Source: Escherichia coli | GTDB lineage: Bacteria > Pseudomonadota > Gammaproteobacteria > Enterobacterales > Enterobacteriaceae | Strand: one strand, 5' to 3' | Assembly: GCF_003334785.1 (NCBI RefSeq) | Contig: NZ_QOWV01000046.1 | Length of the DNA stretch: 4,468 nt | Shown: piece by piece, positions 1,405 through 1,734 of the stretch | Position numbering within the stretch: the stretch's first letter is position 1 | Layout: every line of letters starts with the position of its first letter | Translations under genes and position numbers: made by a program | The notes under the pieces: model-generated | What the model was told of the DNA's origin: nothing | What the model saw: the letters and a program-made list of their open reading frames with translations, nothing else | Databases searched by the model: none

Positions 1405-1692
1405 TGTAAATATTCTTCCGTTGTAAATGGCGCTGGAAAATTTCTCATCAGTGAAACCTTCCGGAAGTTTCCCCCCCTTGTATGATGTATATCGCCAGTA
1501 TTTTATTTCATCCCGGCTGTAATTTTTATATTCCCCGGCACGTGCAATAACGCTGACCAGAGATATAAGGCTCATTAATAACTTTACAGGTAATTTCATA
1601 ATTAAATTTCCAGTGAGTGAATTGACAGGTGAGGGGTAAAACTTTCTCTCAGGTAATATATATCTGAAAATATTTTCAATAACACCAGACAG

Positions 1693-1720
1693 GAAAAACA
1701 CCACCACAGGCGGTGGCGTT
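1693..1720 (-). terminator. Probable rho-independent terminator downstream of the dynamin-like gene
   Basis: On the minus strand, directly after the stop at 1737-1735: stem CCACC/GGTGG (1701-1705 with 1712-1716, extendable with one mismatch), 6-nt loop, then TTTTT (complement of 1694-1698). The stem is short, so moderate confidence. Confidence 0.4.
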
Positions 1721-1734
1721 TCTTTGGGGCGTCT

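What the first reader, a model, noticed from the sequence alone, without database searches (positions are those of the whole stretch)
1405..1734. A+T-rich 330-bp leader with an in-frame upstream extension of the Ivy-like ORF
Seen in sequence: the Ivy-like frame stays open for about 100 codons upstream of the preferred start, up to 1707, and includes a second hydrophobic stretch MKLPVKLLMSLISLVSVIA from an ATG at 1599-1597. This is unusual for such A+T-rich DNA. Inference: it may be chance, the remnant of a displaced gene, or an alternative start giving a membrane-anchored isoform. The region must also hold the promoter of the secreted-protein operon, which I could not place confidently.
Basis: seen in the sequence. 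Interest (0 to 1): 0.3.

Follow-up and report, generated by a model that had tools for sequence, protein, structure and literature searches.

The report
Gene stump fused in frame to Ivy-like gene
The "upstream extension" is the leftover first third of a neighbouring secreted-protein gene that a deletion joined in frame to an intact Ivy-fold gene in an E. coli genomic island; it is drifting neutrally, so it is an ordinary gene remnant, although public annotation wrongly treats it as part of the protein.

Summary
On the minus strand the frame of the Ivy-like ORF is open from 1734 to 916. It contains ATG 1599 followed by MKLPVKLLMSLISLVSVIA, and the leader is A+T-rich.

The extension is not chance and shows no sign of being a selected isoform. 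Codons 1-63 (1599..1411) are the 5' stump of a different gene, "gene A". Gene A encodes a 180-185 aa secreted protein that, in E. coli CE10 and other strains, sits intact at the same place after the patatin gene. The Ivy-like "gene B" lies about 1 kb further on there, with its own ATG (MKRLHTLM), Shine-Dalgarno and signal peptide. In the window, gene-B-type nucleotide homology starts at 1411, 7 nt before ATG 1404.

The stump evolves neutrally: 21 nonsynonymous and 4 synonymous variants, against omega 0.06-0.33 for gene B. One allele has TGG->TGA. A G7 tract (1471-1477) is G6 or G8 in 68 of 1334 otherwise identical complete genomes. IS elements sit at its ATG in some strains. Gene B stays intact in the sampled broken-stump loci where it is still present.

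The parts
1735..2502 (-). 3' part of the patatin-like phospholipase gene. Its stop codon is at 1735-1737, in the same frame as the extension. In this window the gene is truncated at its 5' end by a 2.77-kb deletion.
1689..1715 (-). Intrinsic-terminator-like hairpin (stem 1715-1699) plus T-run, just after the patatin stop. The GTG at 1707 that opens the listed ORF lies inside it.
   Evidence: the 50-nt segment folds at -19 kcal/mol
1650..1734 (-). Conserved post-patatin block, shared at 95-99.9% identity by islands whatever cargo follows. Homology with other cargo types ends at 1650-1654.
1600..1649 (-). Diverged 5' untranslated region of the gene A allele. It has the same length as in intact gene A loci (patatin stop to ATG is 135 nt, against 132-134 nt) but lacks their AAGGAG Shine-Dalgarno.
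1411..1599 (-). Gene A remnant, codons 1-63 (MKLPVK...IYNGRI). It comprises a signal peptide (1599..1537, predicted cleavage ARA|G by the -3,-1 rule) plus about 42 residues, and ends just before the family's conserved N(F/Y)PWT core.
   Evidence: BLASTP 46% identity, E 5e-14 to CE10 gene A; 48% to L013 gene A; gene A profile matches positions 1-64 only, E 7e-11 in 1.84 billion proteins; family core seen
1471..1477 (-). G7 homopolymer (C7 on the + strand) inside the remnant. Its length varies between genomes (G6, G8, G9, G12), which shifts the extension out of frame with gene B.
1411..1419 (-). Deletion/recombination junction. GGAAGAATA can be read as gene A (GGGCAAATA in L013) or as gene B's upstream region (GGAGAAT in L007). 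Nucleotide homology to unfused gene B loci starts at 1411.
916..1404 (-). Gene B: a 162-aa Ivy-fold pre-protein with its own ATG (1404-1402), its own signal peptide (MKRLHTLMLFLAVLFTGFNFNAEA|A) and four invariant Cys, including the CKxxxC loop.
490..900 (-). Gene C: a 136-aa protein with an N-terminal hydrophobic, signal-peptide-like stretch, 15 nt after gene B, with a strong Shine-Dalgarno (-8.7 kcal/mol). It accompanies gene B in fused loci and in L007/L018-type operons.

Best explanation
The extension is a non-functional 5' stump of a neighbouring gene. It was fused in frame, by one deletion or illegitimate-recombination event, to an intact Ivy-fold gene.

Ancestral layout, still present in a few dozen E. 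coli genomes: patatin gene, terminator, gene A (180-185 aa secreted protein), a decayed 128-aa gene, then gene B (160-aa periplasmic Ivy-fold protein).

In the window, everything from gene A codon 64 to about 7-15 nt upstream of gene B's ATG is gone. The ends are joined at a short GGA(A)GAAT microhomology. The join happens to be in frame. The stump is young, so it still reads as an open frame with a plausible signal peptide.

Shown: the origin of the extension, the junction position, neutral drift of the stump, purifying selection on gene B, and gene B's independence from the stump's reading frame.

Inferred: the biologically relevant product is the 162-aa pre-protein started at ATG 1404. A product started at ATG 1599 would carry two signal-like segments, and the second would most likely act as a stop-transfer anchor that leaves the Cys-containing Ivy domain in the cytoplasm. 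Transcription presumably comes from gene A's old promoter region (1600-1698) or from read-through of the patatin terminator. Neither was located.
For: 1. Same slot. Intact gene A starts 132-134 nt after the patatin stop in CE10 and L013; ATG 1599 is 135 nt after it.
2. Homology. Pairwise E is 5e-14. The gene A profile hits remnant-bearing ORFs only over positions 1-64, at E 7e-11 to 2e-6 in 1.84 billion proteins. Distant full-length relatives of 190-217 aa show the long form is ancestral.
3. Gene B's native start. All unfused homologs begin at MKRL(H/S)(T/S)LM and have their own Shine-Dalgarno. Nucleotide homology to four unfused loci starts at window 1411.
4. Selection. Pairwise pN/pS for the stump is 0.5 in the two comparisons with only 3 differences, otherwise 1.4-2.1 or undefined because there are no synonymous changes. 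Gene B in the same pairs gives 0.06-0.33. There are 25 distinct variants, 21 nonsynonymous (one nonsense) and 4 synonymous. This fits neutrality (P = 0.37) and rejects omega = 0.25 (P = 2.6e-4).
5. Breakage is tolerated.
   - TGG->TGA plus an Arg in the signal-peptide core in L010-L012.
   - G6 in 26 and G8 in 42 complete genomes, against 1266 with G7.
   - G-tract frameshifts in metagenome contigs of the Nissle-type allele.
   - IS elements at the stump's ATG in L043 and strain E371.
   - Gene B is full length in every sampled locus with a broken stump where it is still present; in E371 the cargo itself is largely gone.
6. Lost translation signals. The stump's Shine-Dalgarno is -3.3 kcal/mol, against -8.8 to -9.3 for intact gene A.
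Against: - NCBI PGAP annotates the long form.
- The frame is open in about 95% of genomes that carry the fusion.
- The fused arrangement is far commoner than the intact one: about 2250 genomes against 31 with 80% or more coverage, of 5426. This could reflect an advantage.
- Gene B's own Shine-Dalgarno was weakened by the join (-3.5 kcal/mol against -5.7 to -8.2 natively). ATG 1404 is therefore not obviously the stronger initiation site, and predicted mRNA accessibility is equal at both ATGs.
- No transcription-start, ribosome-profiling or proteomic data for this locus were found.
- No nearly identical full-length parent allele of the stump was found. The closest intact gene A is only 48% identical.
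- Part of the G-tract length variation could be assembly error.
Confidence: 0.85

Rival explanations
1. The 227-aa long form is the genuine functional product, as annotated in RefSeq. It would be a secreted or membrane-anchored Ivy-fold protein with an extra N-terminal module recruited from gene A (exon-shuffling-like domain accretion).
For: - PGAP calls the CDS from ATG 1599.
- The frame is open in most genomes.
- The N-terminus still looks like a signal peptide with an ARA|G site.
- Neither ATG has a strong Shine-Dalgarno, so the upstream one could win.
- The fused arrangement is the common one.
Against: - The 63 codons evolve neutrally while gene B is constrained.
- Nonsense, frameshift and IS-disrupted alleles keep gene B intact.
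- Every unfused homolog uses MKRL... as its start, with its own signal peptide.
- The stump lacks the conserved core of its parent family.
- By inference, a second hydrophobic segment after an exported N-terminus should act as a stop-transfer and strand the disulfide-bearing domain in the cytoplasm.
Confidence: 0.08
2. The G tract in the stump is a phase-variation switch. In frame (G7), ribosomes starting at ATG 1599 read through and make a mislocalised fusion. At G6, G9 or G12 the upstream ORF ends at a TGA that overlaps gene B's ATG (ATGA), so that termination-reinitiation delivers native pre-gene B.
For: - Tract lengths of 6, 7, 8, 9 and 12 are seen in genomes and assemblies.
- The -1 frame ends ...TTEEYLQ* with TGA overlapping ATG 1404.
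- Gene B's own Shine-Dalgarno is weak, so coupling could matter.
Against: - The tract is not conserved. Several alleles interrupt it (GGGTGGG, GTGGGGG, AGGTGG).
- 95% of window-type genomes are G7.
- G8 gives a frame that stops early, with no overlap with ATG 1404.
- Some length variants may be sequencing errors.
- A 7-nt tract is short for efficient slippage in mismatch-repair-proficient E. coli (general knowledge).
Confidence: 0.04
3. The open frame is pure chance in A+T-rich non-coding DNA.
For: The 36 codons between 1707 and 1600 are open by chance in 11% of shuffles.
Against: - 65 open codons occur in 0.6% of shuffles.
- The segment has significant protein-level homology to a real gene family.
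Confidence: 0.01

Closest known systems
Gene remnants and in-frame chimeric ORFs made by deletion in decaying genomic islands and cryptic prophages (such as the CP4-44, CP4-57 and CP4-6 family of E. coli)
   Same: - It lies in a CP4-44-like island (GTPase, dynamin, RdcB, patatin, cargo, DUF932, antirestriction, yeeS/T, cbeA/cbtA) next to yeeA.
- It has a truncated 5' gene piece, a microhomology junction and neutral drift.
- There is other decay nearby: a frameshifted GTPase and a 2.77-kb dynamin-patatin deletion.
   Different: The join is in frame and keeps a signal-peptide-like N-terminus. Annotation pipelines therefore accept the chimera as a 227-aa protein and mark intact gene B copies as 'frameshifted' or 'missing N-terminus'.
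Ivy (inhibitor of vertebrate lysozyme; E. coli YkfE and P. aeruginosa Ivy; PDB 1xs0, 1gpq, 1uuz; Pfam PF08816)
   Same: - A disulfide-capable CKxxxCG loop aligns in register with Ivy's CKPHDCG.
- It has an N-terminal signal peptide.
   Different: - There is no Pfam hit even at E <= 10, and the profile-to-PDB E is only 1.2.
- The loop His of CKPHDC is N in this allele and H or D in others.
- The protein is encoded in an accessory island.
- Inhibitory activity is untested.
Homopolymeric-tract phase variation (slipped-strand mispairing contingency loci)
   Same: A G7 tract inside an ORF varies in length between isolates, changing the reading frame.
   Different: The tract sits in a remnant that shows no constraint, is interrupted by substitutions in several alleles, and its variation leaves the downstream gene intact. 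There is no evidence of a regulated switch.

Membership tests
Gene A family (unnamed 180-217 aa secreted proteins; CE10_RS12030 / WP_000668904.1-like) | N-terminal signal peptide followed by the ...GW.LPEG(Y/F)T.E.F.S.IY... block | tested here: met
   46-48% identity over 59-63 residues, E 5e-14. Profile match to positions 1-64 at E 7e-11.
Gene A family (unnamed 180-217 aa secreted proteins; CE10_RS12030 / WP_000668904.1-like) | Conserved core N(F/Y)PWT ... LADK.SKT ... GKGC ... C-terminal ELCRR.GNC | tested here: not met
   The remnant stops at codon 63, immediately before NFPWT. The profile match ends at position 64. It is therefore a fragment, not a member protein.
Gene A family (unnamed 180-217 aa secreted proteins; CE10_RS12030 / WP_000668904.1-like) | Same genomic position (first gene after the patatin terminator) | tested here: met
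   The ATG is 135 nt after the patatin stop in the window, against 132-134 nt in L013 and CE10.
Ivy (PF08816), for gene B rather than the extension | Ivy fold | tested here: met
   [not shown]
Ivy (PF08816), for gene B rather than the extension | Significant match to the Pfam or PDB sequence profile | tested here: not met
   No Pfam hit at E <= 10. Family profile against Ivy chains gives E 1.2-1.3.
Ivy (PF08816), for gene B rather than the extension | Disulfide-bonded protruding loop CKPHDC with the inhibitory His | tested here: inconclusive
   C104-K105-x3-C109 is invariant and aligns with CKPHDC. The His position is N, H or D depending on the allele.
Ivy (PF08816), for gene B rather than the extension | Inhibition of c-type lysozyme or lytic transglycosylase in the periplasm | not testable with these tools
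   Needs biochemistry.
Genuine N-terminal extension / alternative-start isoform | Extension conserved and under purifying selection in homologous loci | tested here: not met
   21 nonsynonymous to 4 synonymous variants. Nonsense, frameshift and IS alleles exist. The extension is absent from all unfused homologs.
Genuine N-terminal extension / alternative-start isoform | Translation initiation at the upstream ATG in vivo | not testable with these tools
   Shine-Dalgarno strength is -3.3 against -3.5 kcal/mol and accessibility 0.50 against 0.49 for the two ATGs, which does not discriminate. No public data were found.

The most novel reading that the evidence does not exclude
The stump has been co-opted as a translated leader ORF whose G tract toggles gene B expression. 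In frame it yields a mislocalised or anchored fusion. In the -1 frame it ends at a TGA overlapping gene B's ATG (ATGA) and couples translation into native, exportable Ivy-like protein. This would be a phase-variable switch for a periplasmic lysozyme or transglycosylase inhibitor in a widespread E. coli island.
Probability: 0.04. Interest if true: 0.55.

Novelty: new member of a known kind. Interest (0 to 1): 0.15.

Why it matters
Biologically this is routine island decay. Its practical importance is for annotation.

- A chimeric 227-aa "protein" (WP_000775500.1, and the related WP_001362823.1, WP_000775510.1 and WP_060578077.1) is propagated to about 2250 of 5426 complete E. coli genomes.
- Annotation of intact copies of an Ivy-fold gene as "frameshifted" or "missing N-terminus" pseudogenes is plausibly a consequence of using the chimera as the reference.
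- Anyone who expresses or models this protein from the database entry would include 65 irrelevant residues and a false first signal peptide.

The work also shows that the downstream gene belongs to a Pfam-less, island-borne Ivy-fold family. That family is the more interesting object for follow-up.

Tried and rejected
- Sequence profiles. Pfam, NCBIfam, PADLOC and PDB sequence searches of the long ORF, the extension, gene A and gene C gave nothing significant. The only hits were a weak LeoA/LeoBC hit for the dynamin fragment and an NCBIfam hit at E 0.022 for gene C.
- RNA families. Rfam over the whole window at E <= 1 found nothing.
- Promoter search. The strict sigma-70 scan found no minus-strand site in the leader. 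A lenient scan found nothing better than 8 of 12 matches. The promoter remains unplaced.
- Start-codon discrimination. Shine-Dalgarno energy and mRNA accessibility were equal for both ATGs, so this is not decisive.
- Species-representative genomes. A peptide-pattern scan for gene B and an exact scan for the junction both found nothing. The locus appears confined to the E. coli accessory genome.
- Parent allele. A search for a near-identical full-length parent of the stump found only other stumps. The gene A family is small.
- Literature.
  - No paper cites the protein accessions, and a search on Ivy paralogs found nothing relevant.
  - The EDL933 Cappable-seq supplementary tables, as held (several are cut), contain no entry for dynamin, DUF932 or antirestriction genes, nor for leader sequence strings.
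  - I could not locate the locus in EDL933 by browsing 2.64-2.87 Mb. The yeeA-linked island there lacks this segment.
- Rejected: 'chance ORF'. Also rejected: the reverse idea that gene A grew out of the extension, because distant full-length gene A relatives exist.

Full report
**Context**

The window is E. coli DNA and its genes lie on the minus strand. The tested segments (400-2000 and 1300-1760) are 100% identical to many complete genomes, and the whole window is 99.9% identical to O103:H2 12009 apart from one deletion.

The region is a CP4-44-like island next to yeeA. Its gene order is GTPase (frameshifted), dynamin, RdcB-like, patatin-like phospholipase, two 'hypothetical' genes, DUF932, antirestriction, yeeS, yeeT, cbeA/cbtA.

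The finding covers the 330 nt between the patatin stop (1735-1737) and ATG 1404 of the first hypothetical gene.

**1. The observation**

- The minus-strand ORF 916..1707 (263 aa) exists.
- ATG 1599 is followed by MKLPVKLLMSLISLVSVIARA.
- The leader has 34-42% G+C.
- The frame is open for 110 codons upstream of ATG 1404, back to the patatin stop, which is in the same frame.
- In shuffles, 65 stop-free codons of this composition occur 0.6% of the time. The 36 further codons up to the GTG at 1707 occur 11% of the time.

Only the 1599..1405 part therefore needs explaining.

**2. What the extension is**

Homologs of the protein fall into two length classes. Copies of 223-227 aa carry the extension. 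More divergent copies of 160-161 aa all begin at MKRL(H/S)(T/S)LM, which corresponds to ATG 1404.

The key locus is strain CE10.
- After the same patatin gene, terminator and conserved 85-nt block, it has an intact 185-aa gene, here called gene A. Gene A begins MKFIVKALICFAALCVTTAYAFDNKEFSRGEIKYSDYLPGNGWTLPEGYTQERFISSIYK....
- The Ivy-like gene, here called gene B, lies about 1 kb downstream with its own ATG and an AAGGA Shine-Dalgarno.
- The same layout, with a 180-aa gene A, occurs in a second group of genomes (L013-L017).

Evidence that the extension derives from gene A:
- It aligns to the first 59-63 residues of gene A at 46-48% identity, pairwise E 5e-14.
- A gene A profile searched against 1.84 billion representative proteins hits ORFs carrying the extension only over profile positions 1-64, at E 7e-11 to 2e-6.
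- The same search finds distant full-length relatives of 190-217 aa. They share a conserved core (N(F/Y)PWT, LADK.SKT, GKGC, ELCRR.GNC) that the extension lacks.
- The ATG positions correspond: 135 nt after the patatin stop in the window, 132-134 nt in intact loci.

The extension is therefore the 5' stump of gene A: a signal peptide plus about 42 residues.

**3. The junction**

The conserved post-patatin block ends at window 1650 in every comparison. Homology to unfused gene B loci (CE10, L013, EC11, L007) begins at window 1411, 7 nt before ATG 1404.

On the protein level, gene A similarity runs through ...IYNGRI, compared with IYKGQI and IYKGRI in intact genes.

The nine bases GGAAGAATA (1419-1411) resemble both gene A (GGGCAAATA) and gene B's upstream GGAGAAT. 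The join therefore lies in this microhomology.

Everything between is missing: about 120 codons of gene A plus a decayed 128-aa gene that is visible in L013 and intact in L007/L018. That the join is in frame is a one-in-three outcome.

**4. Is the extension maintained?**

It is not.
- Among five alleles, Nei-Gojobori pN/pS for the 65 codons is 0.5 in the two comparisons that rest on only 3 differences. In the others it is 1.4-2.1, or undefined because there are no synonymous changes. Gene B in the same pairs gives 0.06-0.33.
- Over 34 of the 35 loci held that carry the junction (one low-coverage metagenome contig, L041, was left out), there are 25 distinct single-base variants in the 195-nt stump. 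Of these, 21 are nonsynonymous (one nonsense) and 4 are synonymous. This fits neutrality (P = 0.37) and rejects gene-B-like constraint (P = 2.6e-4 at omega 0.25).
- Allele L010-L012 carries TGG->TGA at codon 35 and an Arg in the hydrophobic core of the old signal peptide.
- A G7 run at 1471-1477 is G6 in 26 and G8 in 42 complete genomes that otherwise match exactly, against 1266 with G7.
- G6, G9 and G12 forms appear in the protein database, and G-tract shifts appear in metagenome contigs of the Nissle-type allele.
- IS elements sit exactly at the stump's ATG in L043 and in strain E371.
- In every sampled locus with a broken stump that still carries gene B, gene B is full length. In E371 the cargo itself is largely gone.

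The stump is also far less diverged (pS <= 0.06) than gene B (pS 0.13-0.72) in the same loci. This suggests a single, fairly recent fusion followed by allelic exchange within gene B.

**5. Which start is used?**

This could not be settled computationally.
- Both ATGs have weak Shine-Dalgarno pairing: -3.3 kcal/mol at 1599 and -3.5 at 1404. Intact gene A has -8.8 to -9.3, native gene B -5.7 to -8.2, and gene C -8.7.
- Predicted accessibility is equal at both ATGs.
- No convincing sigma-70 promoter lies in the leader.
- A terminator-like hairpin follows the patatin stop.

My inference is that the relevant product starts at ATG 1404.
- That start and its signal peptide (cleavage AEA|A by the -3,-1 rule) are conserved in all homologs.
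- The domain has four invariant cysteines.
- A protein begun at 1599 would have an exported N-terminus followed by a second hydrophobic segment. That segment should act as a stop-transfer and leave the domain in the cytoplasm.

This step is inferred, not shown.

**6. Gene B**

- No Pfam, NCBIfam or PDB sequence hit was found.
- The family profile aligns its invariant CKxxxCG loop with Ivy's CKPHDCG, though at a non-significant E of 1.2.

'Ivy-like' is therefore justified at fold level. Function is untested.

**7. Annotation consequence**

- The fused arrangement occurs in about 2250 of 5426 complete E. coli genomes. The intact gene A plus gene B layout occurs in about 31, counting 80% or more coverage.
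- PGAP names the chimera as a protein.
- It marks G6/G8 genomes as 'frameshifted' pseudogenes.
- It marks intact unfused gene B copies as 'missing N-terminus'. My inference is that this follows from using the chimera as the reference.

**8. Comparison and verdict**

This is a gene remnant of a familiar kind in a decaying island. The same window also carries a 2.77-kb deletion that fuses the dynamin N-terminus to the patatin C-terminus at about 2401/2402.

The only non-trivial residual possibility is that the G tract plus the ATGA overlap in the -1 frame acts as an expression switch. The tract's poor conservation argues against this.

No literature or public transcription-start data on this locus were found. 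Interest is low. The value lies in correcting the gene model and in flagging the Ivy-fold family.

Noticed in passing
window 2401-2402 (minus-strand genes 1735..2502 and 2375..3325): Relative to O103:H2 12009, the window lacks 2773 bp (L001 2826-5598). This fuses the first ~310 codons of the dynamin-family gene to the last ~250 codons of the patatin gene and removes the RdcB-like gene. The upstream operon is therefore dead in this strain.
   Followed up: partly
[not shown]
   Followed up: partly
window 1471-1477: The G7 homopolymer is a mutational hot spot. Lengths of 6, 8, 9 and 12 are seen, and at least three independent G->T or G->A substitutions occur inside it across alleles.
   Followed up: yes
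L026 811-1493, L027 811-1495, L005 3157-3645, L049 3496-3984: RefSeq marks gene B as 'frameshifted' or 'missing N-terminus' in genomes where the 160-162 aa gene with its own ATG is intact. This is probably because the chimeric 227-aa protein serves as the reference.
   Followed up: partly
L043 ~1100-2330; L048 2668-3850: Two different IS elements are inserted at or within a few bases of the stump's ATG 1599-equivalent: an IS3-family element in a metagenome contig and ISKpn26 in strain E371. ISKpn26 or IS903B also interrupts the patatin 3' end in other strains (L002). This looks like a local insertion hot spot.
   Followed up: no
window 422-1650; L004, L005, L006: The stretch between the conserved post-patatin block (ends at 1650) and the DUF932 upstream region (resumes around 400-422) is a variable cargo slot. 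It is empty in E-1246. It holds gene A plus gene B in CE10, a DUF905 gene in 1916D18, and the fused A'-B plus gene C here.
   Followed up: partly
L007 600-5530; L018 100-5530: In another island type, next to an SMC_N/AAA_15 gene, gene B and gene C sit in a tight operon of about nine small proteins (257, 192, YfjT-family 153, 128, 160, 136, 129, 158 and 202 aa), none but YfjT with a Pfam family.
   Followed up: no
window 490-900 (-): Gene C (136 aa, N-terminal signal-peptide-like stretch, strong Shine-Dalgarno) has no family assignment. Its only hit is a sub-threshold NCBIfam match to the BLB8/JUQZ-1 family (E 0.022, 15 bits against a cut-off of 40).
   Followed up: no
window 1575-1602 (+): The only promoter-like consensus match in the leader is on the opposite strand (TTAATA-16-CATAAT) and overlaps ATG 1599. 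It scores 9 of 12 and the count is within chance expectation.
   Followed up: no
window 2375-3325 (-): The dynamin fragment gives weak PADLOC hits to LeoA (E 1.8e-7) and LeoBC (E 1.6e-4) of the Eleos defence system. The island's GTPase-dynamin-RdcB-patatin module may be related to it.
   Followed up: no
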